Source: a virus
Taxonomy: Duplodnaviria > Heunggongvirae > Uroviricota > Caudoviricetes
Direction: 5' to 3' (one strand)
DNA length: 40,422 nucleotides
IMG/VR virus record: IMGVR_UViG_2563366920_000004
In this document: positions 7,103 to 35,457 of the stretch, one piece after another
Position numbering within the stretch: position 1 is the stretch's first letter
Layout: each line of letters opens with the position of its first letter
The notes under the pieces: model-generated
Database searches by the model: none
What the model was told of the DNA's origin: nothing
What the model saw: only the letters and a program-made list of their open reading frames with translations
Translations under genes and position numbers: made by a program

Positions 7103-7119
7103 ATTACCTTTCGGGTAAT
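7103..7119. promoter_or_regulatory. operator-like palindrome ATTACC-TTTCG-GGTAAT
   Basis: Perfect TTACC-N5-GGTAA inverted repeat in the divergent region between the tailspike start and the SOS-box gene. Confidence 0.6.
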
Positions 7120-7155
7120 TTGCAAAACGTGCTGGATAGCAAACAAATTATTTGA

Positions 7156-7175
7156 TACTGTATAAATATACAGTT
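7156..7175. promoter_or_regulatory. LexA (SOS) box TACTGTATAAATATACAGTT
   Basis: CTGT-N8-ACAG core with an AT-rich spacer, close to the E. coli LexA consensus; about 20 bp upstream of the ATG at 7195. Confidence 0.7.
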
Positions 7176-7194
7176 ATTGCATGGAGAAGATAAG

Positions 7195-7452
7195 ATGCAG
7201 CAGTATCACTATCCACTGGAAGACGGATTTACCGAAAGGATTCACACGCCGGGAGGCGTCAGATCACTGGTGGAGGGATCGCACTTGATGAAATTACTCC
7301 GGGATCTCGATAAGGATGGATTTAATGTCGATGGCCCACTTGCCGAACTGACTGCACTGATTAACTACGTCACCAGCTCACAGATGTCTATGCAGGATCT
7401 GCAAACACATCTCGACTATTGTGCCGAACAATTACGAAAACAAACCACATAA
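7195..7452 (+). CDS. small antirepressor-like protein (paralog of the Bro-N antirepressor C-terminal domain)
   Basis: ATG at 7195 with GGAG RBS 8 nt upstream (track ORF begins at a TTG at 7177); C-terminus LMKLLRDLDKDGFNVDGPLAELTALINYVTSSQMSMQDLQTHLDY aligns with the C-terminus of 8598..9290. Confidence 0.65.
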   Translation: MQQYHYPLEDGFTERIHTPGGVRSLVEGSHLMKLLRDLDKDGFNVDGPLAELTALINYVTSSQMSMQDLQTHLDYCAEQLRKQTT

Positions 7453-7490
7453 AGAAAAGGCCGCTCTAGCGGCCTATCGTTTCGCTTTGT
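7451..7490. terminator. bidirectional intrinsic terminator
   Basis: GGCCGC-TCTA-GCGGCC hairpin with A-run upstream and T-rich tract downstream, between convergent genes 7195..7452 (+) and 7474..8202 (-). Confidence 0.55.
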
Positions 7491-8202
7491 GCTCGTCCCA
7501 GCACGTTTTGCACCATGCCATTAAGCCGTCCGCATTTTGATTATTAGGGTAAAAGCTAGTTCGTTTTCTGCGGACATTACAAATTGGGCACCACTTCATA
7601 TGGCGTGTATTCTTTGGGCCATCGAGACACCTTGCACACCACTTAGTCAATCCATCTGGATTTTTTGACGATTTCCTGAATTTTTCATATGGAAGGTTTA
7701 TTCTGCATCGCAAGCACTGCTTGCTACCACTTGAAACTCTGTTAGCTGATTCTTCTTTTGGCGGCGATACAGAAGGTATTCTTGCTGGCTCTGATACTGC
7801 CTGAGGTGCTTTTTTAGATGACTGAGACGATATGTCATCACCAGGGAATCTTCCATGATATGCCGGACGCGTTGACACTCCGGGTGGAAGCTCAGCTGTA
7901 AACGGCTTTGGCTGAATCAGTTGCCTCTCTTTTGCTAACTCCTGCTGTTTATAATATGTCTGGATTACCGCGCTATCATAAGCAGGAGGTACGGAAATAT
8001 TAGGCGCATTATCTCCCGTTTTTTGAAACTGAGTGGAGGTGTGTTCTATCACCTGTGTACGATTAATCGTTATCTCCCCATCTTCAGTCTTTATCGTTTT
8101 GTTATGATTAACGACCGTACGATCAGAGATCTTAGTCTTGTTCTGGTTGATAACGTAAATAATCACCGCAACCACACCAACAACTACCCAGAAAACTTCC
8201 AT
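7474..8202 (-). CDS. membrane-anchored protein with C-terminal tandem CxxC zinc-ribbon repeats, unknown function
   Basis: N-terminal transmembrane helix (VFWVVVGVVAVIIYVI), long Pro/Ser-rich linker, C-terminal duplicated motif C-x2-C ... DGL-x2-WC-x2-C; GAGGAAAGG RBS before ATG. Confidence 0.6.
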   Translation of the reverse strand: MEVFWVVVGVVAVIIYVINQNKTKISDRTVVNHNKTIKTEDGEITINRTQVIEHTSTQFQKTGDNAPNISVPPAYDSAVIQTYYKQQELAKERQLIQPKPFTAELPPGVSTRPAYHGRFPGDDISSQSSKKAPQAVSEPARIPSVSPPKEESANRVSSGSKQCLRCRINLPYEKFRKSSKNPDGLTKWCARCLDGPKNTRHMKWCPICNVRRKRTSFYPNNQNADGLMAWCKTCWDEHKAKR

Positions 8203-8222
8203 TGCCTTTCCTCACAATAACA

Positions 8223-8237
8223 TTACCTTAAAGGTAA
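8223..8237. promoter_or_regulatory. operator-like palindrome TTACC-TTAAA-GGTAA
   Basis: Perfect palindrome 21 bp upstream of the 7474..8202 start codon, in the divergent region shared with the Bro-N gene. Confidence 0.6.
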
Positions 8238-8315
8238 TATCTTGCTTTCAGGTGATCAAGCGTTAAACGCAATCAACCAAATACGGTTGATTTTAATATT
8301 TCTTCGCGTTTATCA

Positions 8316-8330
8316 TTACCTTTGCGGTAA
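8316..8330. promoter_or_regulatory. operator-like palindrome TTACC-TTTGC-GGTAA
   Basis: Second perfect copy in the same divergent region. Confidence 0.6.
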
Positions 8331-8424
8331 ATTTACATCGCACTCCTCTTGTGCCATAGTAATCGGGCACTGGCAAAATCCAGTGCCGGGATTGGTCTCC
8401 CGGATTACTACAGAGGCACATATG

Positions 8425-8443
8425 CCGCATAAGCGGTTTTTTT
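8425..8443 (+). terminator. intrinsic terminator-like hairpin plus T7 run inside the Bro-N gene leader
   Basis: CCGC-ATAA-GCGG followed by TTTTTTT; preceded by two further GC hairpins (about 8365-8403); lies about 155 bp upstream of the Bro-N start. Confidence 0.45.
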
Positions 8444-8597
8444 ATGTGTAAAGCGCACCTATTCTATGGTGGGCTGTGTGGGGGCACCGAAAGGTGCGCC
8501 GGGTTCCTTTGTAGCCGGTAAGACCAACTCTGCACAGTTCACCACCATCTGATTGGTCTCAGCGGTGGTGATTAACCTAACTACAAAGGTGATCGCC

Positions 8598-9290
8598 ATG
8601 AATACCAAACCTTCCATCTTTTCCTTTGAGTCATCCTGCCAGATCCGTATGTTCATGATTGACGGAGAACCTTGGTTTGTCACCAAAGATGTGTGCAATG
8701 CTTTGAATATTGATGTTACACAAGCGAGAAAACTTGATAAAAAAGGCTGGAACAAAAAGGGGCTGTATTCAATACAGACCCCTGGTGGAATACAAGAACT
8801 ATCCATCGTTTCAGAATCAGGTCTCTACATCCTTATTCTGCGTTGCAAAGAGGCAATGACTGAGGGAACGAGAGCATTCAGATTTCTTGAATGGGTTACA
8901 GGTGAGGTTCTTCCTCAGATCCGCCGCACCGGAAGTTACATTAAAAACTCGCTCCCGCAGGAAGAACGCATAAAGATGGTTGCCGACCAGGTAGCCAACG
9001 CCACAGCATCAGCAGTGATGCAGGCAATGAAGATAGAGAACAAAACCTACAGTGCCCCGCTGAAGCCCGGCTACCGCAGCCTGATTCATTCTCCGTCTGG
9101 TGTTCTCGGCCTGACGGAGAACTCATTGCTTATGAATCTGCTAAACCAGTTACAGGAAGACGGGCACGACGTATCGGGCGCGGCGGCGGAGCTGACCACC
9201 ATGTTCTGCTACATCGTCGGTGTGAGCAAATGCCTGCGTGATATCCAGACGCACGCGGAGTACATCAACGACAAGGCAGGGTTCTTCTGA
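8598..9290 (+). CDS. Bro-N domain antirepressor
   Basis: Start set at internal Met (MNTKPSIFSFESSCQIRMFMIDGEPWFVTKDVCNALNI...) of track ORF 8553..9290, with AAGGTGA RBS; N-terminal Bro-N pattern; C-terminal domain paralogous to 7195..7452. Confidence 0.75.
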   Translation: MNTKPSIFSFESSCQIRMFMIDGEPWFVTKDVCNALNIDVTQARKLDKKGWNKKGLYSIQTPGGIQELSIVSESGLYILILRCKEAMTEGTRAFRFLEWVTGEVLPQIRRTGSYIKNSLPQEERIKMVADQVANATASAVMQAMKIENKTYSAPLKPGYRSLIHSPSGVLGLTENSLLMNLLNQLQEDGHDVSGAAAELTTMFCYIVGVSKCLRDIQTHAEYINDKAGFF

Positions 9291-9297
9291 CGGCGGC

Positions 9298-9320
9298 GGC
9301 ACAGGGATGTGCCTTTAAAT
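9298..9320 (+). terminator. intrinsic terminator after the Bro-N gene
   Basis: GGCACA-GGGA-TGTGCC hairpin followed by TTTAAATAATT. Confidence 0.45.
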
Positions 9321-9361
9321 AATTCTGTACGATTGCAGACCGGGGGGTGAATAGAGTACTA

Positions 9362-9376
9362 TTACCTTACGGGTGA
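9362..9376. promoter_or_regulatory. operator-like palindrome, one mismatch (TTACC-TTACG-GGTGA)
   Basis: Imperfect copy of the TTACC-N5-GGTAA motif immediately downstream of a possible -10 (TACTAT). Confidence 0.45.
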
Positions 9377-9413
9377 TCCATAGCGATTAGGCACCGATAC
9401 AGGAGGAGCCCAC

Positions 9414-9446
9414 ATGAGAAAATTTGACGAGTACGAAGGCGTTTAA
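9414..9446 (+). other. 10-codon leader ORF (MRKFDEYEGV) with strong RBS
   Basis: AGGAGGAG 5 nt upstream of ATG; ORF ends 19 nt before a GC-rich terminator hairpin that directly precedes the 9506 gene. Confidence 0.35.
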
Positions 9447-9464
9447 CATTCGGATAGTTTAATG

Positions 9465-9487
9465 ACGGGGCCATTAGGCCCCGTTTT
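9465..9487 (+). terminator. leader terminator/attenuator hairpin
   Basis: ACGGGGCC-ATTA-GGCCCCGT (8-bp GC stem) followed by TTTC; ends about 19 nt before the GTG start at 9506. Confidence 0.5.
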
Positions 9488-9505
9488 CATGTCTGGAGAC
9501 AGTTT

Positions 9506-10045
9506 GTGTTAAGTGAAGAAATGCAATTTGCCATGGCTGTGGCTCAAATCGTAAGTGCAGTCGCGGTTTCGCTTGGCTTGTTCATAGCTATCGCTACTAT
9601 TATTTATAATGTAAATACAGCGAGAAAAGTACACACTTCAGTATTCCTTGGTGAAAGCAGGTTTGATGTAGATTATAAGAAAGGCCTATCTACTATGCGC
9701 CGCATTCACGAGTCGAACAAATCATTCCGCTCTTATATGTATCCAAGCAATGGGCAGGCTGATCTTACGGATGAAGAAAAGATAGAGAAGAGAGAAATAA
9801 TTTACTGTCTAGGTTTCTACGAACGCATGGCTGTGAGCGTGAAGCGGAAAACTTATGATGAGACCATGATTAAGGAAGTATTTTACAGCTCCGTTGTAAA
9901 TAACTATCAGATTGCGCTACCTCTTATACAAGCTATTAGAGAAAAAGAAAACATAAACACATATTTTAAAGAATATGAATGGTTGGCCACACGATGGAAG
10001 GATTGTCCATTGAAGGATAAATCCCCGTGGTACAAGTTTTGGTAA
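9506..10045 (+). CDS. single-pass membrane protein of unknown function (candidate superinfection-exclusion/abortive-infection moron)
   Basis: GTG start with GGAG RBS 7 nt upstream; N-terminal transmembrane helix (AVAQIVSAVAVSLGLFIAIATIIY) then ~140-aa soluble domain; visibly AT-rich; strong terminator immediately downstream. Confidence 0.6.
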   Translation: MLSEEMQFAMAVAQIVSAVAVSLGLFIAIATIIYNVNTARKVHTSVFLGESRFDVDYKKGLSTMRRIHESNKSFRSYMYPSNGQADLTDEEKIEKREIIYCLGFYERMAVSVKRKTYDETMIKEVFYSSVVNNYQIALPLIQAIREKENINTYFKEYEWLATRWKDCPLKDKSPWYKFW

Positions 10046-10066
10046 GCCCGCGCTGCGGGCTTTTTT
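10046..10066 (+). terminator. intrinsic terminator
   Basis: GCCCGC-GCT-GCGGGC followed by TTTTTT directly after the stop codon of 9506..10045. Confidence 0.7.
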
Positions 10067-10104
10067 GTGTCTGCGGATTCCCGCCCGGGTGGCGGTGGCA
10101 TTCG

Positions 10105-10130
10105 TTAAAAACAAGGCCGCGAAAGCGGCC
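10105..10130 (-). terminator. intrinsic terminator for the minus-strand late operon
   Basis: GGCCGC-GAAA-GCGGCC hairpin; on the minus strand it is followed by a U-run (plus-strand TTAAAAACAA); just downstream of the 10138..10989 stop. Confidence 0.6.
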
Positions 10131-10137
10131 TGTTTGA

Positions 10138-10989
10138 TCACTGTGCAGTTTTCGCTGATCGATTTTCAGCTCTAAATTCAAGAACCGTTTCAATATTTCT
10201 TTCCTTCAGCATATCAATAACATTTTTATTCATTTGACTATCACTGGTTAATAACTGGTAAACGTTGCTTCTCTCTTTATCAGAATTTTCTTTAACAGCT
10301 GCTTTGCATGCCAAATGCTTATTGAAATTTTCTACATCGCTAGTACAGGAATTTACGGCTGCTGATGAAATATCAGACGCTGAAGAAACACCATCATCCA
10401 AACGTTTTATAGCATTTTCTATACATGAGTTAAGGGAATAAACGACAACTGAGCGATACCCTTCAGACGCACACCATTCTAAATTTCTTGAAGGATCGAG
10501 TGGTTTTACTTCGCTGGATTGAATTAACTTGTCAAAAACTGACTTATATTCAATCTGTTTTTTATCTATAGCCCATACTTCAGTAGCTGATTTATAATTC
10601 CCCGTATGCCTATTAACATCAAATCCATGTTTTATAAGCAAATCTGCCCATGAAAGATTTATTGATTCATTGTTATGAGGCCATTTTCCTGTCAGAACCG
10701 CCCCCATAGACCCCATATATCCGCCATATGATGGTATAGCACCATGGCTCAGTAACTTCTCAGCAACCACAGGGCAATTAATTACATAAGAGGCGTAAAG
10801 CCCATTCCATAAAGCCCCTCTATAGTAATCGCCACGATTAGGTTCTTTTAAGTCGATAGCCTTTGATAATTGTTCACACGTTTTGCATGCATCAAAGTTA
10901 TCCTTATTGCATTGCAATGAACTGGCGGCTGTAGGATTTACAGAGACTATTGAAAGCACTATGCCAAAAAACAAATTTATTTTTTTCAT
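10138..10989 (-). CDS. secreted protein of unknown function at the end of the virion-protein operon
   Basis: Sec-type signal peptide (MKKINLFFGIVLSIVSVNPTAASS); start 1 nt after the stop of the 1129-aa gene; visibly AT-rich compared with flanking structural genes. Confidence 0.55.
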   Translation of the reverse strand: MKKINLFFGIVLSIVSVNPTAASSLQCNKDNFDACKTCEQLSKAIDLKEPNRGDYYRGALWNGLYASYVINCPVVAEKLLSHGAIPSYGGYMGSMGAVLTGKWPHNNESINLSWADLLIKHGFDVNRHTGNYKSATEVWAIDKKQIEYKSVFDKLIQSSEVKPLDPSRNLEWCASEGYRSVVVYSLNSCIENAIKRLDDGVSSASDISSAAVNSCTSDVENFNKHLACKAAVKENSDKERSNVYQLLTSDSQMNKNVIDMLKERNIETVLEFRAENRSAKTAQ

Positions 10990-18157: not shown

Positions 18158-20628
18158 CAGAATCCCCCAACAGTAAGGCGAGGAATAACGGCAAGAACAG
18201 ACAGTGGCAACGGGTCAAGCTGACGGATTCTTACACGTCCGTTTTTGCCCCAGTTACTGTCCAGTTTCACTTCTACTTTTCCGGTAGCATCATCAACAGG
18301 ATCATCGTAGAACTCGAATTCACGCTGTGGATATTCGTACCATTTACCGCCGGGCGTAGTCGCCCAGATGCCGCGACTGGCATTCACAACCAGAGTAACG
18401 GACGGGATCACCTGTTTTTTGTCCAGCAGCGTTTCCTGTCCGTTAATGTTGATATCCAGTGTTTCGAATTCAGCAGTTATTGGCAGGCCGATGTGCACAA
18501 CAGCCCCAGGTGATTCCAGCGTGACGGCACCTCCGGAAACCACTTTCTGTGGTTCCACGTTCGCATCAGAGAGAATGTTTACGGTCTGGCCTTCAAGATG
18601 AGACAGGCCTCCAAATGTCCGGCGCGCCATCTGCCAGTTCGTGGTGGCCACATTCCTGAGGGATGGCGGGACGTTCCTGTTAGCACGAACCACTACAGCG
18701 GTGTTGCTGGTTACAGAAATAATGTCGCAACGTAATTCTTTTGACACCTCATCGCCAGTATCAGGATCAGTTCCGGTATAAGGGAACTGTAGTTGCGCGC
18801 CGACATCACTACTGGTGAAGTACGCACCACCAGAAACACTGATTGTATATTCCGCGCGGTAATCCCATTCGCCAGAACCACCAGTGATGATCATCGTTCT
18901 GTCAGACGTATTTCTTCCATCATAGCTAAGGCCAGAATCAACAAAGAAAGCATCTTCATCGCTGGTAAATAAACGGCTGGACAGTCGCTCGATGTATCTC
19001 ACTGTTTGCCCGTTAACGGTTCGGTTAATGACGAAATACACCGCATCTTCATTGCCTTCGCTGATACTGCATGTGCTTTCATATTTTCCGGTACTGGACT
19101 GTGGTGCCCATGCAAAAACCTGTTGATCACGCAAATAGGTCATCACCAGTAATTTACCGTCATCACGAATGCAGAAGGCGCTGGAGTAAGGGACAATAGA
19201 GAAGCACCAGTCAACAATGCTGTGCTTCTGAAAAAGATGATTGGCAAGGATAGTAAGGTCGTTCCCCTGATAGCCGTCAACATCGAATGAGTAGGCCAGA
19301 TCACGGACAACACTGCCTTTCTCCTGGACGAACAGAGCAATATTCGCCACGGCAATTGGTGGGACATTGCTCGAGCCATTTGATCCCTGAGAGCTGAATG
19401 CAAATGATGATGGGGTTAACACTTTGTTCTGGTCGCCGGTGATGACGTACTCACCTCCGGAAGTCAGTGCCACCAGCGAACCGACATCAATCAGGTGGCG
19501 GATCTCATTAACCTGACGCCCGGCATAGGTGTAGATAATTCTGTCGTCATCCTGCGTAGGATTGCTTTTGCCAAAATCCTTATAATCCCCGGTACGGCTG
19601 GCCCAGATAGTCTGAGGGAACGCAGTCGATGCGGCGAAGTAAAGACGTTGTTGATAATAAACAACAGTGCCAGGATAACCATTAACACTGTTCCAGGCAT
19701 ATTTAGCCCATTTATAGCTGGCATTATCCTCGCCAACTACCTGCGAAGGGATATAGGAAATCACCTCGGCAGTTGCAGTAGTTCCATTTGCAGCAGTGAT
19801 ACGGGCAATGCCAAAACCACTGTGCAGATATTCCCACTCAATGCCAGTATCATCATCACCGGATCCGCCCCAGCCATCCCATGATGTGCCTTCTGTATGC
19901 GAAGGGCGCAAAGTACCTGTTTTGCCTGCTGTAACGGCGCGATAGTAGTTACTGTCTGCACGGCGAATATCGCCAATCGACGTACTCTTACTGGTTTCCC
20001 ATACCGGCACTGAATCCACTGCAGGCTGTTCCAGATAGAACAATTTGCCTACCTGCTCCGCGCCAAAAATAGAGGCGCTTGCCGTTAACGTAATTGTCCC
20101 GGTGCTGGCGCTGGCATAAACCGTCACTGACTCGTCAATATTGATATCTTCAAATGGCCCGTTCTTCGTTACCACATCAACCAGTTGCCAGTTGTCATGC
20201 GCATAGCGACGCAACTCTTTCGGCGGGTATGCCGGATGAACCAGCGTAAGCACGTCGGCGCTTTGCGTGAATTTAATTCGGAACAGATCGGCTTCAGTAT
20301 ATGGCGTGGCAATTTCATAAATAACATTGCTGCTGTTCAGCACCAACGCACCATCTTTGATAACGCGCATGTACTGGTGTCCGAACTCCAGAGCATAAGT
20401 CTGAACCGTCGAGAACTGGAACGGGATCAGGCGGCATTTCCGATTTGGGTATTTGGCGGCACCGACAAAACGCGTACCAGGTCGATTCTCAACGCCGCCA
20501 TACTGCCGCACGATAAAGTTATCGCACTTGCGCAATGCCACCTGGTACTTCGCCATGTCGATACGACCGTACAACGACGGTCCAATCTCACCACCGGCAA
20601 AGCTGGGCTGGATCCAACTGATAGCCAT
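18157..20628 (-). CDS. tail tubular protein B-like (nozzle)
   Basis: 823 aa following the tube A-like gene; N-terminal pattern GGEIGPSLYGR ... GGVENRPGTRF weakly recalls T7 gp12; synteny. Confidence 0.55.
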   Translation of the reverse strand: MAISWIQPSFAGGEIGPSLYGRIDMAKYQVALRKCDNFIVRQYGGVENRPGTRFVGAAKYPNRKCRLIPFQFSTVQTYALEFGHQYMRVIKDGALVLNSSNVIYEIATPYTEADLFRIKFTQSADVLTLVHPAYPPKELRRYAHDNWQLVDVVTKNGPFEDINIDESVTVYASASTGTITLTASASIFGAEQVGKLFYLEQPAVDSVPVWETSKSTSIGDIRRADSNYYRAVTAGKTGTLRPSHTEGTSWDGWGGSGDDDTGIEWEYLHSGFGIARITAANGTTATAEVISYIPSQVVGEDNASYKWAKYAWNSVNGYPGTVVYYQQRLYFAASTAFPQTIWASRTGDYKDFGKSNPTQDDDRIIYTYAGRQVNEIRHLIDVGSLVALTSGGEYVITGDQNKVLTPSSFAFSSQGSNGSSNVPPIAVANIALFVQEKGSVVRDLAYSFDVDGYQGNDLTILANHLFQKHSIVDWCFSIVPYSSAFCIRDDGKLLVMTYLRDQQVFAWAPQSSTGKYESTCSISEGNEDAVYFVINRTVNGQTVRYIERLSSRLFTSDEDAFFVDSGLSYDGRNTSDRTMIITGGSGEWDYRAEYTISVSGGAYFTSSDVGAQLQFPYTGTDPDTGDEVSKELRCDIISVTSNTAVVVRANRNVPPSLRNVATTNWQMARRTFGGLSHLEGQTVNILSDANVEPQKVVSGGAVTLESPGAVVHIGLPITAEFETLDININGQETLLDKKQVIPSVTLVVNASRGIWATTPGGKWYEYPQREFEFYDDPVDDATGKVEVKLDSNWGKNGRVRIRQLDPLPLSVLAVIPRLTVGGF

Positions 20629-26334: not shown

Positions 26335-26424
26335 ATCAATGACTCCGTACGCAATTAAATTATTACCAATTTAACCACATATGATTTATTTATCGTAGAC
26401 AGTTGACATTTAACGCGCGAATTA

Positions 26425-26439
26425 TTACCTTTCAGGTAA
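26425..26439. promoter_or_regulatory. operator-like palindrome TTACC-TTTCA-GGTAA
   Basis: Perfect palindrome just downstream of a TTGACA hexamer, upstream of the portal operon. Confidence 0.6.
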
Positions 26440-26761: not shown

Positions 26762-26838
26762 GTGGCATTAGCTCAGTTGGACAGAGCAACCGCCTTCTAA
26801 GCGGTTGGTCGCAGGTTCGAATCCTGCATGCCACGCCA
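26762..26838 (+). tRNA. tRNA-Arg (anticodon UCU), phage-encoded
   Basis: Cloverleaf traced by hand: 7-bp acceptor stem GTGGCAT/ATGCCAC, D-arm GCTC/GAGC, anticodon stem ACCGC/GCGGT with loop CTTCTAA, T-arm GCAGG-TTCGAAT-CCTGC, discriminator G and encoded CCA. Confidence 0.85.
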
Positions 26839-26881
26839 GAATCACGCCTAAGGACCGTGATGCCAGAAGTTCCAGGTGCTT

Positions 26882-26923
26882 GGCGGTGATGGTTTCCCTT
26901 GAAGGACTATCACCGCCCTTTTT
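26882..26923 (+). terminator. intrinsic terminator downstream of the tRNA
   Basis: GGCGGTGAT ... ATCACCGCC stem followed by CTTTTT. Confidence 0.55.
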
Positions 26924-27001
26924 ACAGCAGGACGCCATTGCGATGACTTCATGCTGTAAACCAGTACAGCCACGGAAGGCATAACTCATTGCTTCCAGTT
27001 C

Positions 27002-27025
27002 GCCCGGTTCGCCGGGCATTTTTTT
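27002..27025 (+). terminator. intrinsic terminator 11 nt upstream of the gp49-like gene
   Basis: GCCCGG-TTCG-CCGGGC followed by ATTTTTTT. Confidence 0.7.
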
Positions 27026-27036: not shown

Positions 27037-27411
27037 ATGAACGACCAGCAAATCGAAAAAGAAATCGTTGAGAAAGGTAAAACGGCACCTCGTGTAACTC
27101 CTGAGAAAATTGAAGGTCTCATTTGCAGTGAGCATTTTTTTACTGCTGCGCAGGGGGATCATCAGGCTAAAGAAGATGACCTTATTTATAATCCAGAGCC
27201 TTATGTCGAAGCCACCCCTGATGCTCTGCACCTTCTCACTTTCTGCGTCCTGGTGCTGCGCAACGGCTTCACCGTCACCGGAGAGAGCGCCTGTGCAAGC
27301 CCGGAAAACTTTGATGCAGAAATTGGTCGGAAGATTGCCCGACAGAATGCTGTAAACAAAATCTGGATGCTTGAAGGTTACTTGCTGAAGCAGAAGTTAA
27401 GCGAGCAATAA
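27037..27411 (+). CDS. phage Gp49-like family protein, unknown function
   Basis: 124 aa; motif ...TVTGESACASPENFDAEIGRKIARQNAVNKIWMLEGY typical of the N4 gp49 / Sf6 gp66-like family; AAGGTGAG RBS; opposite strand to the flanking packaging genes. Confidence 0.6.
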   Translation: MNDQQIEKEIVEKGKTAPRVTPEKIEGLICSEHFFTAAQGDHQAKEDDLIYNPEPYVEATPDALHLLTFCVLVLRNGFTVTGESACASPENFDAEIGRKIARQNAVNKIWMLEGYLLKQKLSEQ

Positions 27412-28977: not shown

Positions 28978-29570
28978 TGATTACCATCCTGACGTTCTTT
29001 GAGTCGCTTCCTGGCTGCCGCTATGCGATCAGCAATTGTCACATTCACATTAACATCCAGTCGTTCTTTGAATGCGTTGACGTCGACGTGCTTACCAATC
29101 AGTTCGAGGTTCTTCACCTTGTCAGGCCATTTAATTTTTTTGAGGATTGTCTCTATCGAATCCTCGTTCATGTTCATGATGGTCGATGACAGATCAAAGC
29201 CGCTAAGCGTAGTGCGCCAGATTTTCGGCCACTCGCGGATTGGCTTAAGGCTCCCATCGTCGTTGAGGATATCAATCACGTCCATCTGGTCGATCTCCAC
29301 CAGGCGCATGAGAACGTAATCAGCACTGACGCGCATTCGTTTGTTGCGCTCCTCCATCAACTCGGCAATCCGTTTCTGAATGCGTTCATCGCGCATCATG
29401 ACACTGGCTTTAACTGCCGCTGTATTTGGGGAGAATCCTGCATTAATCGCAGCCTGAGTCTGGTTTTCAGGCGTTTTGATGTATGACTGGCAATAAGCCT
29501 CCTGCATTGCTGTTAGTGGCTTAAATTGCGTTGATTTGCGTTTATAGGCTTTAGGTTCAGCAGGCATCAT
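28974..29570 (-). CDS. terminase small subunit
   Basis: Start moved to internal Met-27 (MMPAEPKAYKRK...) of track ORF 28974..29648; the track's TTG-initiated N-terminal extension covers a non-coding operator palindrome. Confidence 0.6.
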   Translation of the reverse strand: MMPAEPKAYKRKSTQFKPLTAMQEAYCQSYIKTPENQTQAAINAGFSPNTAAVKASVMMRDERIQKRIAELMEERNKRMRVSADYVLMRLVEIDQMDVIDILNDDGSLKPIREWPKIWRTTLSGFDLSSTIMNMNEDSIETILKKIKWPDKVKNLELIGKHVDVNAFKERLDVNVNVTIADRIAAARKRLKERQDGNQ

Positions 29571-29586
29571 AACCACCGTGGTAATA

Positions 29587-29601
29587 GTTACCGTTGTGGT
29601 A
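29587..29601. promoter_or_regulatory. operator-like palindrome TTACC-GTTGT-GGTAA
   Basis: Perfect palindrome within a direct repeat of TGGTAATAGT, about 17 bp upstream of the proposed terS start. Confidence 0.55.
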
Positions 29602-29644
29602 ATAGTAACATGCAAAATAAAGCCGCCATAGTTGGCGGCAGTAT

Positions 29645-29878
29645 TCAAAGTCCATCAAATTCATCGTAAAAACTCTCGTCAAGATACCCTTCCCATTTAC
29701 CGCGAATGAAAATTACATCCTCGCCGCAAGGGTGCTGACTGTCGATAACTATATCCCTCCTGGCGCAACCATACTTATGCATGAGAAATTTAACCTCTTT
29801 CGGAAAATTTGCTGAGTTATCTCTCATATCTTCAAGGTCGTAGCGTATTTTTGGCATAACACCTTCGTGACATGTCAC
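29645..29878 (-). CDS. hypothetical protein
   Basis: 77 aa ORF coupled (4-nt overlap) to the upstream gene. Confidence 0.4.
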   Translation of the reverse strand: MTCHEGVMPKIRYDLEDMRDNSANFPKEVKFLMHKYGCARRDIVIDSQHPCGEDVIFIRGKWEGYLDESFYDEFDGL

Positions 29879-30216
29879 ACTATTAATTTCGTTTCATGCC
29901 AGCCTTTAGTCACCCAGCATTGTGAGTCACCATTACACGGACATGAATTAACTGGAACTCTCTCGCCGCACTTACCGCAACGTTTTCTACTGATCGATTT
30001 TATACGCCCGCGCACGCGTGCATCATCCTGGCGGATCAGTAACGCTATATACTCACCAAATTCGTAAGGCGCACGCCCGGGGCGACGCGCGGCACAGTTA
30101 CGCTCAAGCATTTCAATTTCCTGAGCATCAAGCACAATCTCCAGCTTACGTACACCGGATGCAGCTTGTCTGGCTCTCTGAGCGGCTTTGCGCTCTGCTG
30201 CTGATTTAGCCATCAA
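29875..30216 (-). CDS. hypothetical protein with C-terminal Cys-rich (zinc-binding-like) segment
   Basis: 113 aa; C-terminus CGKCGERVPVNSCPCNGDSQC; last but one gene before the packaging operon, a position where late regulators often sit. Confidence 0.4.
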   Translation of the reverse strand: MMAKSAAERKAAQRARQAASGVRKLEIVLDAQEIEMLERNCAARRPGRAPYEFGEYIALLIRQDDARVRGRIKSISRKRCGKCGERVPVNSCPCNGDSQCWVTKGWHETKLIV

Positions 30217-31968: not shown

Positions 31969-32316
31969 TCAGAACTCTTCGATGTTCCAGCCACCACCTG
32001 CTTTCTTTGGTTTAACCGTTACCCCGATGATTCGGAACGGATACTGATCTGCGGCGACTTTGGTTTTCACCCTGGCGTCGTCGGTCCAGAATCCCCCTTT
32101 CACTTCGTGCAGCTCCATCTCGCCGGTGGCGAGCATCACAGCAAAATCGGGCGTATAGAACGTGTTGTCAGCTAACCGCAGCTTGATACCCTCAAATCGA
32201 TACCAGACGATTTCTCCTGCACGTTTACGCATCTCAAGGTGCTGGCAATACGCAGATTCTGTTTTGTTCATCTGGCCTGTTTTGAGTCGACCAAGAGCCT
32301 GTATCTGTTTTCTCAT
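31969..32316 (-). CDS. PD-(D/E)xK nuclease-like protein (DUF1064-like; possible Holliday-junction resolvase)
   Basis: 115 aa; motif TPDF ... ELHEVKG consistent with a PD-(D/E)xK active site; located after the replication genes. Confidence 0.5.
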   Translation of the reverse strand: MRKQIQALGRLKTGQMNKTESAYCQHLEMRKRAGEIVWYRFEGIKLRLADNTFYTPDFAVMLATGEMELHEVKGGFWTDDARVKTKVAADQYPFRIIGVTVKPKKAGGGWNIEEF

Positions 32317-32319: not shown

Positions 32320-32334
32320 TTACCTCTGAGGTAA
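32320..32334. promoter_or_regulatory. operator-like palindrome TTACC-TCTGA-GGTAA overlapping the RBS of the nuclease gene
   Basis: Perfect palindrome ending 4 nt upstream of the 32316 start codon. Confidence 0.55.
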
Positions 32335-32381
32335 TTAAAAACCACATAAGACACGAAATCAATAGAGTTTAGAATATTTTG

Positions 32382-32396
32382 TTACCCAACAGGTAA
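32382..32396. promoter_or_regulatory. operator-like palindrome GTTACC-CAACA-GGTAAC
   Basis: Perfect 17-bp palindrome about 65 bp upstream of the nuclease gene. Confidence 0.55.
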
Positions 32397-32433
32397 CTAT
32401 CAAGACATAAAAAAATGCGCTATCGCGCTGGTA

Positions 32434-33210
32434 TTACTTGATAAATCCTGCCGCCTTTCCCCGCCTGTATTCCTCCATCAGCCACTGCGCCGGTGTTATT
32501 CCCCCCAGGGTGGCGGCGTTAGGCATGCACCCGAAACTTCGCCCTGGCGGGTGGTAAACGTCTCTCCCTGTGTCCGGAGGCGTACTCATGGGTTCTGGCT
32601 TTGCCTGTATGCTGATCACCGGATCGGGTATCTGCTGTCCGGAAGCCACCTTTTTCGCCCAATCATCGAGCAGCCTGCGCGCGTGTTTCTCAACCTCAAT
32701 CTCGCTAAGCTGGCGCTGATACATTGCACGGCGGGTATCACATACGACCCAGTACATAACCGGATGCCGCCACGGGAATCTTTCGGGACCACCAGGATAT
32801 AAACTTTTTTCCTTGCTGTACCGGTGAAACTCCGCCATCACATCGTCAATGGTGACGCCAAGAACCATCTTGCTGTCTTTACACCACTTGATGAATTGCC
32901 CTGGCGACGGCCAGAACGGAGACTCACTGGCGCGGGCGTGGCGCATACCAGCGTTAACCTGTTCCATTGTAGTGATCCCATTCTCCAGAAACGCAAGCAT
33001 CCATTGCTTACGGAATTCATTAAGTTTGTTCTGCTCCCTTATGGTCGAAACGCTTGCAGGAAATGCAGCCTGTAACTGGACAAATAGTTCATTGAAAATT
33101 CTAGCGACCTGCTCCTTTTTGCCATTGCTGTCACGCCGCTCTTCATGCACAGCAACACCATGCTCACGTAAGCGATCGTACTCATTGAGAAGTTCTGGAG
33201 TTGATTTCAT
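32434..33210 (-). CDS. replication protein P-like (DnaB helicase loader)
   Basis: Recalled-sequence similarity to lambda P: FPAS ... QW-LAF-ENGITTMEQVNAGMR ... PSPGQF. Confidence 0.85.
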   Translation of the reverse strand: MKSTPELLNEYDRLREHGVAVHEERRDSNGKKEQVARIFNELFVQLQAAFPASVSTIREQNKLNEFRKQWMLAFLENGITTMEQVNAGMRHARASESPFWPSPGQFIKWCKDSKMVLGVTIDDVMAEFHRYSKEKSLYPGGPERFPWRHPVMYWVVCDTRRAMYQRQLSEIEVEKHARRLLDDWAKKVASGQQIPDPVISIQAKPEPMSTPPDTGRDVYHPPGRSFGCMPNAATLGGITPAQWLMEEYRRGKAAGFIK

Positions 33211-34030
33211 CCCACACCCCTTCTATCCAGTCAGTGTTATTCCAGTCAAGCTCATCGCTTTTCCCGACGTTTTTTGATTTTCCCCTGATATGATTTACGT
33301 GCCTGGCGAATTTTTGTTCCCACTGAACCTGCGTGAACACTTTGCCCTCAGCCATCCAGTAATCCCGGAATGCAGCAAGTTCAGCAGGTGTAAATTCCGG
33401 TTCCGGCAGGGCCGTTCCCCACAGCGCAGCACGCCGTCGAAAATCCGGCGACGGATGCCAGCCATCGGTCATCGGAAATTTCCCAATAGGTTCACTCAGG
33501 CCATCCAGAAATGCAGGTTCTGCCACCTGCAACGGCGTACCGTTCGCTTCACTGGTCGGATCACTCTCGCGCGCGTGTGCTATGTGTGGGGTTTTATATA
33601 TATCTTCCTCTTCCTCTTCCTCTGGTAACTCCTTTTGTAACGCTGTTGGCGTTACTTTTTGCGTTACTCGTTTTCGATGCTCTGCCACTCTTCTATTCGT
33701 AAGTGCACGTTTTTTCGATGATTCTCCATTGTGTCGCTCAAAGTTTGGAAGAATTAGTTTGCCGTCATGATAAGCAAGCCATCCGACGCTAATGAGGGCG
33801 TCAGCAAATCCTGTAATAAAAGCGAGTCTATCAAGTACTCCTTTTGTAACGCTGCCAGCGTTACCGTCTATTGTTTGCTGGTCAGCCCATGCCCATATAC
33901 GAACCAGCTTTCCAAGAACAGCATCTGGATCAATACCCAGAATTTCTGCTATCTGAAAAATTTCAGGTTTATCAGGAGTGATAACTTCAACCTTAATCCA
34001 GCTGCTTGCCATAGGTTTCCCCTCTTGCAC
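33182..34030 (-). CDS. replication initiator O-like protein
   Basis: Directly upstream of and overlapping the P-like gene; acidic linker (EEEEEE) and Trp-rich C-terminal domain; DNA-level repeats inside the gene. True start may be Met-7 (34012). Confidence 0.65.
   Translation of the reverse strand: MQEGKPMASSWIKVEVITPDKPEIFQIAEILGIDPDAVLGKLVRIWAWADQQTIDGNAGSVTKGVLDRLAFITGFADALISVGWLAYHDGKLILPNFERHNGESSKKRALTNRRVAEHRKRVTQKVTPTALQKELPEEEEEEDIYKTPHIAHARESDPTSEANGTPLQVAEPAFLDGLSEPIGKFPMTDGWHPSPDFRRRAALWGTALPEPEFTPAELAAFRDYWMAEGKVFTQVQWEQKFARHVNHIRGKSKNVGKSDELDWNNTDWIEGVWDEINSRTSQ
33623..33868. repeat. DNA-level repeats inside the O-like gene (candidate origin iterons)
   Basis: Identical 18-mer ACTCCTTTTGTAACGCTG at about 33626 and 33836, each part of an inverted repeat (GTAACGCTG/CAGCGTTAC), plus extra GCGTTAC half-sites; the two copies are read in different codon frames. 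Confidence 0.5.
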
Positions 34031-34205
34031 TCTTTAGTGCACAAGCAAATTCATTACGATGGCGGTTGGCGCTATTCATTGCACATTCAACACATGTTCC
34101 GTTCAGAACATACCTTTCAGAGAGATGGCCGTGACGGCACCGCTTTCCTGTGAAATAGCGATTTAACCCGGCTTTTGCGGCCTCCATTCTGGTTACTATC
34201 TTCAA
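33993..34205 (-). CDS. small Cys-rich (zinc-ribbon-like) protein in the cII-equivalent position
   Basis: 70 aa; C-x3-H ... C-x2-C motif (CRHGH ... CVEC); between the Cro-like gene and the O-like gene. Confidence 0.45.
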   Translation of the reverse strand: MKIVTRMEAAKAGLNRYFTGKRCRHGHLSERYVLNGTCVECAMNSANRHRNEFACALKSARGETYGKQLD

Positions 34206-34283
34206 TTTTTCCGCCCCTTTTTGTTATTGATATTGGCTATTTTGCACAATTGGAAAATTTGATCAACCAGATTTGGTTTTTTA

Positions 34284-34298
34284 TTACCTTTGAGGTAC
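34284..34298. promoter_or_regulatory. operator-like palindrome, one mismatch (TTACC-TTTGA-GGTAC)
   Basis: About 80 bp upstream of the 33993..34205 start. Confidence 0.4.
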
Positions 34299-34353
34299 GA
34301 ATAGATATGAAAAGACCGCCGGATGGCGGTCTACAGAGGGTTGTGGATGGATA

Positions 34354-34584
34354 TCATGAGTAGAAGAAGTATGCCAGTTCTGCTTTTGAGCGCAGCCATT
34401 GTCTTGTTTTACAGGCTTTAAAAAGCCCATTCATCAATACCTTACCTGGCATTTTGCGCTTGCCTGTTAAGTGAGTCTGGATATAGTGACTCGTCGTTCC
34501 GGCTTCCTGTGCGAAGGCTTCACGCTCATCCGGAGTAAGTGCAAGCCAGTGCTTTTTGAAATCGAAATGTCCGTTATCGCTCAT
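34354..34584 (-). CDS. Cro-like HTH regulator (YdaS/Cro family)
   Basis: 76 aa; HTH-like segment LTPDEREAFAQEAGTTSHYIQTHLTGKRKMPGK; divergent from the repressor gene. Confidence 0.6.
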   Translation of the reverse strand: MSDNGHFDFKKHWLALTPDEREAFAQEAGTTSHYIQTHLTGKRKMPGKVLMNGLFKACKTRQWLRSKAELAYFFYS

Positions 34585-34620
34585 AGCTATTGCCTGATAT
34601 TTATTTCAGATAATAAATAT

Positions 34621-34683
34621 TCACCCATAAGGTAACAAAAATCAAGGATAGTTACCTATGAGGTGCATTTACCTGTTGGGTAA
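34621..34683. promoter_or_regulatory. right-operator-like cluster of three palindromes between Cro-like and repressor genes
   Basis: TCACC-CATAA-GGTAA (34621..34635), TTACC-TATGA-GGTGC (34652..34666) and TTACC-TGTTG-GGTAA (34669..34683) in the 154-bp divergent intergenic region. Confidence 0.65.
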
Positions 34684-34738
34684 TATTGCTTTAAATTGAA
34701 TCATCTACTGATTCATATATGAGGCGATTTTCCAGAAA

Positions 34739-35323
34739 ATGAAAAGTATCCAGGACGTCCGCAGGCAAAATCTCAACGACTTGATCGACCGTGAATTCAA
34801 TGGTGTTCAGACGCGGATGGCAGAAAAACTTGGAACTCAGGCAAATCTGGTAAACCGCTGGGCTCTTGGCAAGAAGGTTATCGGCGACCAGGTTGCGCGA
34901 AAAATTGAAGCTGCCGCCAATAAACCCCGTAACTGGCTTGATATCGATCGCTCGCTTTCTCAGGAAGGTTTTCAGCCTGTCGGACCAAGCGACATTGGTC
35001 AACTGGCGGCTCACAACCTGGAACGCTGGATGAGCGAAAGCCGCGACCTTTCAACACAGGGAAAACTTCACCGTGCATCCGGCGTCGCCCAGGTGACAAT
35101 CAGCCGCCTGTTAAACAATGAGGTCAGCGTTTCCATTTCCACCCTGGAGAATGTTGCATCCGCATTCGGGCGTCACGGCTATGAATTACTGATTCACCCG
35201 CACGACCCTGCGACCATCAACTATGACCGCTCGCGCTACGCATTGTTACCCGAAACCGAGAAAGCAAAGATCGAAAGTTACATTGAATTTGTCATCAACC
35301 AGAACGAAAAAAACAAACAATAA
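34739..35323 (+). CDS. immunity repressor with two tandem XRE-type HTH domains and no S24 peptidase domain
   Basis: 194 aa; HTH-like segments QTRMAEKLGTQANLVNRWALGKK and ASGVAQVTISRLLNNEVSVSISTLENVASAFG; no Ala-Gly/Ser-Lys autocleavage signature; GAGGCG RBS. Confidence 0.7.
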   Translation: MKSIQDVRRQNLNDLIDREFNGVQTRMAEKLGTQANLVNRWALGKKVIGDQVARKIEAAANKPRNWLDIDRSLSQEGFQPVGPSDIGQLAAHNLERWMSESRDLSTQGKLHRASGVAQVTISRLLNNEVSVSISTLENVASAFGRHGYELLIHPHDPATINYDRSRYALLPETEKAKIESYIEFVINQNEKNKQ

Positions 35324-35345
35324 AATCATATTTTTCAGTAAGTAA

Positions 35346-35367
35346 GCCGCCTTCTGGCGGCTTTTTT
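35346..35367 (+). terminator. intrinsic terminator after the repressor gene
   Basis: GCCGCC-TTCT-GGCGGC followed by TTTTTT. Confidence 0.75.
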
Positions 35368-35380
35368 ATTGCCTGTTCGA

Positions 35381-35457
35381 TTACCTAATAGGTAATTTTT
35401 TCAACTCATATCTATTGACATCAAACCAGATACGCATAATTATTACCTCAACGGTAA
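35381..35457. promoter_or_regulatory. left-operator-like pair flanking a TTGACA promoter for the early-left operon
   Basis: TTACC-TAATA-GGTAA (35381..35395) and TTACC-TCAAC-GGTAA (35443..35457) on either side of TTGACA (35415..35420) and an AT-rich -10 region. Confidence 0.65.

What the first reader, a model, noticed from the sequence alone, without database searches (positions are those of the whole stretch)
7103..35457. A 15-bp palindrome TTACC-N5-GGTAA recurs about 13 times, almost exclusively in intergenic regions
Perfect or one-mismatch copies sit at about 7104, 8223, 8316, 9362, 26425, 29587, 32320, 32382, 34284, 34621, 34652, 34669, 35381 and 35443. A 10-bp-specified palindrome is expected well under once by chance in 40 kb, and only one weak copy (about 6878) is inside a gene. 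The copies cluster on both sides of the repressor gene like OR/OL operators, but others sit in front of the packaging operon, the portal operon, a nuclease gene and the accessory genes near the tailspike. A single repressor silencing many dispersed promoters is unusual for a lambdoid phage, which normally has operators only at OL and OR.
Basis: seen in the sequence. Interest (0 to 1): 0.8.

Follow-up and report, generated by a model that had tools for sequence, protein, structure and literature searches.

The report
Repressor operators of an epsilon15-like phage
The repeated palindrome is real and is almost certainly the binding site of this phage's prophage repressor at about fifteen places, but the same scattered sites are already annotated in the related phage epsilon15, so the finding is correct and not new.

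Summary
TTACC-N5-GGTAA occurs 10 times perfectly (0.03 expected) and 15 times with at most one mismatch (0.68 expected). Fourteen of those 15 lie in the 9% of the window that is intergenic (P about 3e-14).

The window is not a lambdoid phage. It is a Uetakevirus (epsilon15/phiV10-like podovirus), about 98% identical to phages ZX5 and HEMP4. Its repressor (34739-35323) is a full-length homologue of Salmonella phage SPC32H Rep (PDB 5D50). Its small antirepressor Ant (7195-7452) sits behind a perfect LexA box.

The same motif occurs 7-11 times, at the same gene junctions, in epsilon15, SPC32H, Tyrion (Enterobacter), BUCT711 (Klebsiella), ZX5 and TL-2011b. The half-sites never vary; the 5-base spacer does. 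The epsilon15 GenBank record already labels seven of these sites as repressor binding sites, including the ones before terS, the portal operon, the tailspike gene and a nuclease gene.

Best explanation: these are Rep operators that overlap the -10/+1 region of many promoters. At two promoters, two operators exactly 62 bp apart bracket the promoter.

Verdict: real, the operator reading is right, already known. Direct Rep binding to these sites was not tested here. Side finds include a P1-like isrK/C4 RNA plus antirepressor module under one operator.

The parts
34739..35323 (+). Rep, the prophage repressor (194 aa). It has an N-terminal DNA-binding domain, a C-terminal HTH_3-like tetramerisation and Ant-binding domain, and no S24 peptidase domain.
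   Evidence: Matches PDB 5D50_A (SPC32H Rep) at E=4e-42 over residues 1-190. Pfam finds HTH_3 only. It is 100% identical to ZX5 ORF21, whose overexpression cut holin and endolysin RNA by more than 99.9% (PMC9782041).
34354..34584 (-). Cro-like small regulator, transcribed divergently from rep.
   Evidence: Matches phrog_35 'transcriptional repressor' at E=5.6e-13. Its position corresponds to epsilon15 gp39 and SPC32H_042.
34669..34683 (.). O3, a perfect operator next to rep.
   Evidence: Its columns are conserved in alignment A4.
34652..34666 (.). O2, a degenerate operator (2 mismatches) 17 bp from O3.
   Evidence: A4 shows a perfect copy at the same position in epsilon15, SPC32H and BUCT711, and the same GCACC variant in Tyrion.
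34621..34635 (.). O1 (1 mismatch, TCACC half-site). It lies in the spacer and -35 of the predicted leftward promoter for cro (TTGTTA 34638-34633, 17 nt, TATTAT 34615-34610).
   Evidence: A one-base variant half-site (TCACC or ACACC) recurs at this position in epsilon15, SPC32H and BUCT711.
35381..35395 (.). Upstream operator of the PL pair, ending 19 nt before the -35.
35415..35443 (+). PL-like promoter: TTGACA, 17 nt, AATTAT. It drives the rightward early operon (exonuclease, RecT and others).
   Evidence: Its -35 and -10 are invariant in A1.
35443..35457 (.). Downstream operator of the PL pair, 62 bp from 35381. Its first T is the last T of the -10 hexamer, and it covers +1.
34284..34298 (.). 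One-mismatch operator after the cro terminator (34313-34332) and before the replication genes.
   Evidence: One-mismatch copies sit at the same position in Tyrion (35365) and BUCT711 (6032).
32382..32396 (.). Upstream operator of the second 62-bp pair. It also fills the spacer of an alternative promoter, TTGATA-16-CAAAAT.
32334..32362 (-). Promoter between the pair: TTGATT, 17 nt, TTTAAT. It has the same geometry as PL and drives the DUF1064 gene and the downstream nin-like genes.
32320..32334 (.). Downstream operator of the second pair. It overlaps the -10/+1 region and the ribosome-binding site of gene 31969-32316.
29588..29602 (.). Perfect operator just after a terminator (29639-29612). It abuts a conserved extended -10 (TGTTACTAT, 29610-29602) upstream of terS.
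29570..29584 (.). One-mismatch operator 18 bp further on. It overlaps the terS ribosome-binding site (ATG at 29567).
   Evidence: A one-mismatch copy sits at the same position in epsilon15 (30-44) and Tyrion (85-99).
26425..26439 (.). Perfect operator between gp3/portal (leftward) and tRNA-Arg/orf (rightward). It overlaps the -10 of a conserved rightward promoter, TTGACA (26403-26408), 17 nt, TACCTT.
7104..7118 (.). Perfect operator between the tailspike gene (3880-6999, minus strand) and ant.
   Evidence: Invariant in A5. The epsilon15 counterpart, 19895-19911, is annotated as a repressor site.
7156..7175 (.). LexA box, TACTGTATAAATATACAGTT, upstream of ant.
   Evidence: Conserved in A5.
7195..7452 (+). 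Ant, the small antirepressor (85 aa).
   Evidence: Matches PDB 5D50_E at E=1.3e-47.
8223..8237 (.). Perfect operator 21 bp upstream of gene 7474-8202 (minus strand; phrog_6762, function unknown).
8316..8330 (.). Perfect operator at +1 of the promoter TTGATT (8287-8292), 18 nt, TATCAT (8311-8316).
8367..8549 (+). isrK sRNA (8367-8443) and C4 antisense RNA (8462-8549), downstream of that promoter.
   Evidence: Rfam scores of 74.7 and 78.6 bits, both above the gathering thresholds.
8598..9290 (+). Second antirepressor, of the Bro/ANT type.
   Evidence: Matches phrog_130 'anti-repressor Ant' at E=3.5e-51 and is 81% identical to the ZX5 anti-repressor.
9362..9376 (.). One-mismatch operator abutting the -10 hexamer TACTAT (9357-9362), upstream of the DUF4760 gene 9506-10045.
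6872..6886 (.). One-mismatch copy inside the tailspike gene. It is probably a chance match.
   Evidence: There is no counterpart in epsilon15, and 0.68 one-mismatch copies are expected by chance.

Best explanation
The sites are operators of the prophage repressor Rep (34739-35323). This is the SPC32H-type, non-self-cleaving repressor of epsilon15-like podoviruses.

Proposed mechanism, all inferred:
- Two N-terminal helix-turn-helix domains of Rep read the two TTACC half-sites, whose centres lie one helical turn apart.
- Most operators sit so that the last T of a -10 hexamer is the first T of the operator, or they lie within the promoter spacer. Bound Rep would therefore block RNA polymerase.
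- In this way Rep would control the cro promoter, PL, a promoter for the nin-like genes, the terS promoter, a promoter next to the portal operon, the tailspike/ant region, and three accessory promoters, one of which drives a C4-RNA/antirepressor operon.
- At PL and at the nin-like promoter, two operators exactly 62 bp apart (about six turns, so on the same face of the helix) bracket the promoter. This fits one Rep tetramer holding both.
- Induction would not involve repressor cleavage. Loss of LexA from the box at 7156-7175 would allow Ant to be made, and Ant would take Rep apart.

What was shown here: the sites, their excess over chance, their positions, their conservation, and the identity of Rep, Ant and the LexA box.

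What was not shown here: binding of Rep to the sites, promoter activity, and looping.
For: 1. Excess over chance and intergenic bias.

2. Rep and Ant are full-length homologues of the two chains of PDB 5D50, and a perfect LexA box precedes ant.

3. The same motif is found 7-11 times perfectly in six phages from four host genera. It sits at the same junctions each time. Five alignments show invariant half-sites with a variable N5 spacer.

4. The epsilon15 GenBank record marks seven of these sites as protein_bind features with bound moiety 'repressor', and their coordinates coincide with motif hits.

5. The motif tracks the Rep N-terminal domain:
- 90 of 127 loci that were fetched carry a Rep homologue (30-100% identity) beside the sites.
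- L097 has the same N-terminal domain joined to what looks like an S24 peptidase tail, with two perfect sites just upstream of the gene.
- In Pseudomonas phage PseuP_224 the cI repressor has a different stretch (SANYISRC) at the position of the invariant NLVNRW segment, and that phage has no such sites.
- The segment NLVNRW is invariant across the five Uetakevirus Reps aligned (window, Tyrion, BUCT711, epsilon15, SPC32H).

6. Promoter geometry. The layout is operator, 19 nt, TTGAnn, 17 nt, then a -10 hexamer ending on the first base of the second operator. It holds in 98 distinct sequences falling into 17 clusters. Within the sampled range of 47-77 bp, 62 bp occurs 124 times and 63 bp 20 times; apart from 76 bp (11) and 74 bp (4), no spacing occurs more than twice.

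7. A Rep identical to this one, when overexpressed, abolished holin and endolysin transcription in phage ZX5 (PMC9782041).
Against: No binding experiment or footprint was available to me. The three papers most likely to contain one are Kropinski 2007, Kim and Ryu 2013, and Kim et al. 2016; none is in the library.

Promoters are consensus predictions. Their overall number is no higher than in shuffled sequence.

The operators at 7104 and 26425 lie about 50-65 bp upstream of the best candidate -10 hexamers of the tailspike and portal operons. Direct occlusion of those late promoters is therefore not evident.

The window has no site before its lysis cassette, although epsilon15 has one.

The Cro-like protein may share some or all of the sites.
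Confidence: 0.88

Rival explanations
1. The sites are bound mainly by a different phage regulator, with Rep acting only near its own gene. Candidates are the Cro-like protein (34354-34584) and the phrog_536 'transcriptional regulator' (29875-30213) upstream of terS. The dispersed copies would then be lytic-cycle control sites, either for turning early genes down or for activating late genes.
For: A Cro-like regulator is encoded divergently from rep, and Cro proteins typically share operators with their repressor (my knowledge). The sites before the tailspike and portal operons lie upstream of the candidate -10 hexamers, a position more typical of activators.
Against: The motif co-occurs with the Rep N-terminal domain even in L097, which has a different genome context. 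Most sites overlap the -10/+1 region, which is a repressing position. The epsilon15 curators assigned them to the repressor.
Confidence: 0.07
2. The palindrome is the target of a host protein, or of a DNA-processing system such as restriction-modification, packaging or recombination. It would not be a transcriptional operator.
For: The phage encodes DNA methyltransferases. Two copies sit immediately before terS, where packaging signals are sometimes found.
Against: The sites are almost all intergenic and in register with -10 hexamers. A restriction or methylation target would be scattered through coding sequence or avoided altogether. The motif is kept in phages of four host genera and follows the Rep domain.
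Confidence: 0.02
3. The copies are passive remnants of a duplicated promoter cassette and have no binding function of their own.
For: PL and the nin-like promoter share an almost identical 77-bp layout.
Against: In all five alignments the half-sites are invariant while the N5 spacer varies. The flanking sequence also varies in several of them. Isolated copies also occur with unrelated flanks.
Confidence: 0.03

Closest known systems
Repressor binding sites of Salmonella phage epsilon15 (GenBank AY150271.2; Kropinski et al. 2007, Virology 369:234)
   Same: The half-sites are the same (TTACC-N5-GGTAA) and so is the extended 17-mer. The locations correspond: before terS, before gp3/portal, between ant and the tailspike gene, a pair 62 bp apart at PL, a pair before the nuclease or DUF1064 gene, and a triplet between rep and cro.
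   Different: The two Rep proteins are only 43% identical overall. The window has extra sites before accessory genes (8223, 8316, 9362) and none before its lysis cassette. The epsilon15 record annotates 7 of its 11 perfect copies.
Rep-Ant-LexA switch of Salmonella phage SPC32H (PDB 5D50 and 5D4Z; Kim and Ryu 2013; Kim et al. 2016)
   Same: Rep and Ant are full-length homologues (E=4e-42 and 1e-47), there is a LexA box before ant, and the operator set matches. Rep is reported to act as a tetramer on palindromic sites (as cited in PMC9638917).
   Different: The window carries a second antirepressor of the Bro/ANT type behind isrK and C4 RNAs. No antirepressor of that type is annotated in the SPC32H record. 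I could not read the primary papers, so I do not know which operators they tested.
Phage P1/P7 C1 repressor, with many dispersed operators and the immI (c4 RNA-ant) operon
   Same: One repressor controls many scattered promoters. One of those promoters drives a C4 antisense RNA followed by an antirepressor gene. What P1 does is from my own knowledge.
   Different: P1 operators are asymmetric 17-mers, and C1 is unrelated to Rep (my knowledge; I did not compare Rep with C1). Here the sites are palindromes read by an HTH protein of the Cro/CI type.
Lambda CI/Cro with OL and OR
   Same: There are three tandem operators between divergent repressor and cro-like genes, and further operators at a leftward early promoter on the other side of the repressor gene.
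   Different: Rep has no S24 self-cleavage domain. Operators also occur at about eight other promoters. Induction goes through an antirepressor.

Membership tests
Uetakevirus (epsilon15/SPC32H-type) Rep operator regulon | The repressor is homologous to SPC32H Rep over both domains. | tested here: met
   5D50_A matches at E=4e-42 over residues 1-190. Alignment A6 supports this.
Uetakevirus (epsilon15/SPC32H-type) Rep operator regulon | A small antirepressor Ant is present behind a LexA box, divergent from the tailspike gene. | tested here: met
   5D50_E matches at E=1.3e-47. The LexA box CTGTATAAATATACAG lies at 7158-7173. The synteny matches SPC32H ant/tsp.
Uetakevirus (epsilon15/SPC32H-type) Rep operator regulon | The operator sequence and positions match the sites annotated as repressor-bound in epsilon15. 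| tested here: met
   and alignments A1-A5.
Uetakevirus (epsilon15/SPC32H-type) Rep operator regulon | Rep physically binds the sites and represses the adjacent promoters. | not testable with these tools
   There is only indirect support: an identical Rep, when overexpressed in ZX5, removed more than 99.9% of holin and endolysin RNA (PMC9782041).
Lambdoid CI/Cro switch | The repressor has a RecA-stimulated S24 self-cleavage domain. | tested here: not met
   Pfam finds only HTH families and no Peptidase_S24.
Lambdoid CI/Cro switch | Operators are confined to OL and OR. | tested here: not met
   Fifteen sites lie at about ten intergenic regions.
Lambdoid CI/Cro switch | The genome is of lambdoid type. 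| tested here: not met
   The best matches are Uetakevirus podoviruses.
P1-type dispersed-operator immunity (C1, immI) | Many dispersed operators are controlled by one repressor. | tested here: met
P1-type dispersed-operator immunity (C1, immI) | A C4 antisense RNA lies upstream of an antirepressor gene, in an operon whose promoter carries a repressor operator. | tested here: met
   Rfam C4 scores 78.6 bits at 8462-8549. The Ant gene is at 8598-9290, and the operator at 8316 abuts the -10 hexamer.
P1-type dispersed-operator immunity (C1, immI) | The operator is an asymmetric 17-bp sequence and the repressor is of the C1 family. | tested here: not met
   The sites are palindromic and Rep has an HTH_3 domain. 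This is therefore an analogy, not membership. No direct comparison with the C1 sequence was run.

The most novel reading that the evidence does not exclude
Two ideas remain open.

First, a single Rep tetramer may clamp PL and the nin-like promoter by bridging two operators fixed at 62 bp, forming a very short loop that cages the promoter.

Second, because more than a dozen operators would have to change together, operator specificity may be frozen across Escherichia, Salmonella, Enterobacter and Klebsiella Uetakeviruses. Differences in immunity would then be carried by the antirepressor modules (LexA-Ant and C4 RNA-Bro/Ant), as they are in P1 and P7.

I could not check whether the SPC32H papers already describe the 62-bp arrangement.
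Probability: 0.3. Interest if true: 0.5.

Novelty: already known. Interest (0 to 1): 0.22.

Why it matters
The result confirms that the first-stage reader can pick out a real regulon from raw sequence. It adds little new biology, because scattered Rep operators are the annotated pattern for epsilon15-like phages and the Rep-Ant switch has been solved structurally.

Four practical points follow:
- The phiV10/ZX5/TL-2011b-type records that were looked at lack these annotations and could be given them by transfer.
- The strict 62-bp spacing of operator pairs gives a concrete, testable geometry for how a tetrameric repressor holds a promoter.
- All Uetakeviruses sampled use the same operator, which suggests possible cross-immunity among phages of different enterobacterial hosts.
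- A C4-RNA/antirepressor operon sits under Rep control in this lineage.

Tried and rejected
1. I tried to read Kropinski 2007 (PMC2698709, PubMed 17825342), Kim and Ryu 2013 (PMC3807360) and Kim et al. 2016 (PMC4983836). None is held. Prior experimental mapping of the operators therefore rests on the GenBank annotation and on my memory.

2. Five literature searches found no open paper that gives the operator sequence. The ZX5 paper does not mention the sites.

3. I looked for a site before the lysis cassette (3574-3879), as epsilon15 has one. There is none at up to two mismatches.

4. I tested whether the palindrome TTAAATT-N6-AATTTAA, found upstream of the portal operon, recurs elsewhere. It does not.

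5. I looked for a changed motif in a distant Rep-domain relative, Pseudomonas phage PseuP_224. No clear recurrent palindrome lies near its cI gene; there is only a TTACC-N4-GGTAA-like sequence 21 bp upstream. This was not followed further.

6. NarL 7-2-7 sites were considered as a look-alike host target. I rejected this from my own knowledge of the NarL site, because the half-site spacing differs.

7. Two further CTGT-N8-ACAG matches (22412, 26954) lie inside genes. I treated them as chance, although three matches where 0.59 are expected is itself unusual (1 of 100 shuffles reached three).

Full report
**Observation**

A pattern search finds 10 perfect copies of TTACC-N5-GGTAA in the 40,422-base window, against a shuffle mean of 0.03. 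With at most one mismatch there are 15, against 0.68, and 0 of 100 shuffles reach that number.
- 34652 has two mismatches.
- 29587 should be 29588.
- A one-mismatch copy at 29570 was missed.

The flanks extend the consensus to the 17-mer ATTACC-T-N3-A-GGTAAT. I built a gene map by transferring the ZX5 annotation with tblastn. On that map only 9.1% of the window is intergenic, yet 14 of the 15 sites are intergenic (binomial P = 3.5e-14). The single copy inside a gene (6872, tailspike) has no counterpart in epsilon15 and is within the chance expectation.

**What the window is**

The window is not a lambdoid phage. It is about 97-98% identical to the Escherichia phages HEMP4, vB_EcoP_ZX5 and TL-2011b, and it is related to phiV10, Enterobacter phage Tyrion, the Salmonella phages epsilon15 and SPC32H, and Klebsiella phages. 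All of these are in the genus Uetakevirus or close to it.

It has HTH domains and no S24 peptidase domain. The ORF at 7195-7452, divergent from the tailspike gene, is the small antirepressor Ant from the same crystal (5D50_E, E=1.3e-47). A perfect LexA box, TACTGTATAAATATACAGTT, lies at 7156-7175 just upstream of it.

The window therefore carries the SPC32H-type switch. As I recall it from Kim and Ryu 2013 and Kim et al. 2016, Rep is not cleaved on induction. Instead Ant, which is repressed by LexA, disassembles it. Open papers cite the same account.

**Prior knowledge**

The epsilon15 GenBank record carries seven protein_bind features labelled 'repressor / lysogeny':
- 12-27, before terS
- 2931-2947, before gp3/portal
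- 19895-19911, between gp19 and the tailspike gene
- 32479-32494, 32554-32570 and 32616-32632, next to the repressor gene
- 35906-35922, before the RuvC gene

Each of these coincides with a perfect TTACC-N5-GGTAA hit. In the ZX5 paper, a Rep identical to this window's was overexpressed and lowered holin and endolysin transcripts by more than 99.9% (PMC9782041). That paper does not mention the sites.

I could not obtain the three primary papers. Whether individual operators have been footprinted is therefore unknown to me.

**Comparative evidence**

The perfect motif occurs 7 to 11 times in each of TL-2011b (partial locus), epsilon15, ZX5, Tyrion, BUCT711 and SPC32H. One-mismatch searches of the three searched at that level give 13-18 sites against about 0.5-0.7 expected. 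The sites sit at the same junctions in every genome. Five alignments across phages of four host genera were made:
- PL (A1)
- the promoter before the DUF1064 or RuvC gene (A2)
- upstream of gp3/portal (A3)
- between rep and cro (A4)
- between the tailspike gene and ant (A5)

In all five the half-sites are invariant while the 5-base spacer varies. The flanking sequence also varies in several of them. This is the pattern expected for the target of a dimeric helix-turn-helix protein.

The imperfect sites are conserved as imperfect sites. A variant half-site (TCACC or ACACC) in the cro-proximal operator recurs in epsilon15, SPC32H and BUCT711. The second terS operator carries one mismatch in epsilon15 and Tyrion. 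The site after cro carries one mismatch in Tyrion and BUCT711.

**Link to Rep**

Overall Rep identity falls to 43% between this window and epsilon15. The N-terminal 70 residues keep a fixed core, including the segment NLVNRW, in all five Uetakevirus Reps aligned (A6).

A scan of viral contigs for operator pairs returned more than 120 loci. Of the 127 loci fetched in all, 90 carry a Rep homologue (30-100% identity) beside the sites. One of them, L097, encodes a 233-residue repressor with the same N-terminal domain and a C-terminal sequence that looks like an S24 peptidase. Two perfect sites lie just upstream of its gene, so the motif follows the DNA-binding domain rather than the phage backbone. 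A Pseudomonas phage cI with a related domain but a different stretch at the position of the NLVNRW segment has no such sites.

**How it probably works**

At PL the layout is as follows:
- operator 35381-35395
- 19 nt
- TTGACA (35415-35420)
- 17 nt
- AATTAT (35438-35443)
- operator 35443-35457, which shares its first T with the -10 hexamer and covers +1

The pair at 32382/32320 has exactly the same layout around TTGATT-17-TTTAAT on the minus strand. Both layouts are conserved in all five genomes.

The contigs were selected for pairs 47-77 bp apart. Among them a 62-bp spacing occurs 124 times and 63 bp 20 times. A 76-bp spacing (11 times) and 74 bp (4 times) also recur; nothing else in the range exceeds two. 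The 62-bp pairs comprise 98 distinct sequences in 17 clusters at about 85% identity, and nearly all have the -35 at the same offset. Sixty-two bp is about six helical turns, so the two operators lie on the same face of the DNA. This fits one tetramer with two pairs of DNA-binding domains holding both. That part is inference.

The same rule, '-10 ends on the first T of the operator', holds at three more places:
- terS: the extended -10 TGTTACTAT runs directly into operator 29588-29602 and follows a terminator. The arrangement is conserved in epsilon15, Tyrion and ZX5.
- 8316: TATCAT.
- 9362: TACTAT.

Operator 34621 lies in the spacer of the predicted cro promoter. Operator 26425 overlaps the -10 of a conserved promoter, TTGACA-17-TACCTT. 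This promoter points away from the portal operon, towards tRNA-Arg and the ORF 27037-27411.

For the tailspike and portal operons themselves, the full operator lies roughly 50-65 bp upstream of the best -10 candidates. How Rep affects those two late promoters is therefore not clear.

**Rivals**

Four alternatives were considered: a different phage regulator (the Cro-like protein or the phrog_536 regulator), a host protein, a DNA-processing target, and passive promoter duplication. None explains together the palindromic symmetry with a free spacer, the register with -10 hexamers, and the co-occurrence with the Rep domain. Sharing of some sites with the Cro-like protein remains likely and does not conflict with the main explanation.

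**Comparison and novelty**

The feature belongs to the epsilon15/SPC32H Rep regulon. All the sequence-level criteria I could test are met, and physical binding cannot be tested here. It fails the defining tests for a lambdoid CI switch.

It works like the P1 C1 system in two respects: one repressor controls many scattered promoters, and one of those promoters drives a C4 antisense RNA followed by an antirepressor. It is not a member of that family, because the operators are palindromic and Rep has an HTH_3 domain.

I rate it as already known and of low interest as a discovery. Three points seem worth a specialist's attention. I did not find them in the literature available to me, and they may or may not be in the unavailable papers:
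- the fixed 62-bp promoter-bracketing pairs
- the identical operator specificity across the genus
- the C4/isrK-Ant module under Rep control

Noticed in passing
window 8287-9290: A P1/P7 immI-like module. A promoter (TTGATT-18-TATCAT) is overlapped by operator 8316. It is followed by an isrK sRNA (8367-8443, with a terminator), a C4 antisense RNA (8462-8549) and a Bro/ANT-type antirepressor gene (8598-9290). The phage therefore has two antirepressors, one controlled by LexA and one apparently controlled by Rep and C4 RNA.
   Followed up: partly
window 7156-7175: A perfect LexA box (TACTGTATAAATATACAGTT) lies 20 bp upstream of the Ant start codon. It is conserved in epsilon15, SPC32H, Tyrion and BUCT711 (A5).
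   Followed up: yes
window 7064-7072, 26373-26381, 32340-32348 (minus strand); 3634-3642 with one mismatch: A second recurring motif, TATGTGGTT, lies on the late-gene strand upstream of the tailspike gene, gp3/portal, the nin-like genes and (with one mismatch) the lysis cassette. Counting copies with up to one mismatch gives 17 where 8.5 are expected. Before the tailspike and portal genes it is followed by a GGTAAT half-site that abuts a -10-like hexamer (TAGAAT or TAATTT). The block ATATGTGGTTAAATTGGTAATAATTTAA is invariant in five phages (A3). It may be a late promoter or an activator site.
   Followed up: partly
window 29867-29878: The perfect 12-bp palindrome GTGACATGTCAC lies at the stop codon of the phrog_536 'transcriptional regulator' gene, upstream of terS. 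It is also present in epsilon15, Tyrion and ZX5. Its function is unknown.
   Followed up: no
window 26762-26838 (+): tRNA-Arg (anticodon tct) lies on the strand opposite the late genes. It overlaps an ORF (26768-27019) whose ZX5 counterpart is annotated as a CDS. It sits downstream of the operator-overlapped promoter TTGACA (26403-26408)-17-TACCTT.
   Followed up: partly
L002 26882, L004 28568, L006 26960, L005 12620: The relatives carry a conserved one-mismatch operator about 40-60 bp upstream of the integrase start codon. The window ends exactly at the integrase ATG (40422), so its own copy cannot be seen.
   Followed up: no
L002 (epsilon15) 24704, 33341, 33358, 35969: Four perfect operator copies in epsilon15 are not annotated in its GenBank record. 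They include both strong sites between rep and cro, and the second member of the 62-bp pair before the RuvC gene.
   Followed up: yes
window 9357-9505: The operator-overlapped promoter at 9362 is followed by a 10-codon ORF (9415-9447) and a terminator-like hairpin (about 9462-9487). Only then comes the DUF4760 gene. This looks like a leader or attenuator arrangement.
   Followed up: no
L097 5091-5874: A viral contig encodes a 233-aa repressor with the Rep-type N-terminal domain and a C-terminal sequence that looks like an S24 self-cleavage domain. Two perfect TTACC-N5-GGTAA sites, 48 bp apart, lie just upstream. This is the same DNA-binding module in what looks like a classical CI-type repressor.
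   Followed up: partly
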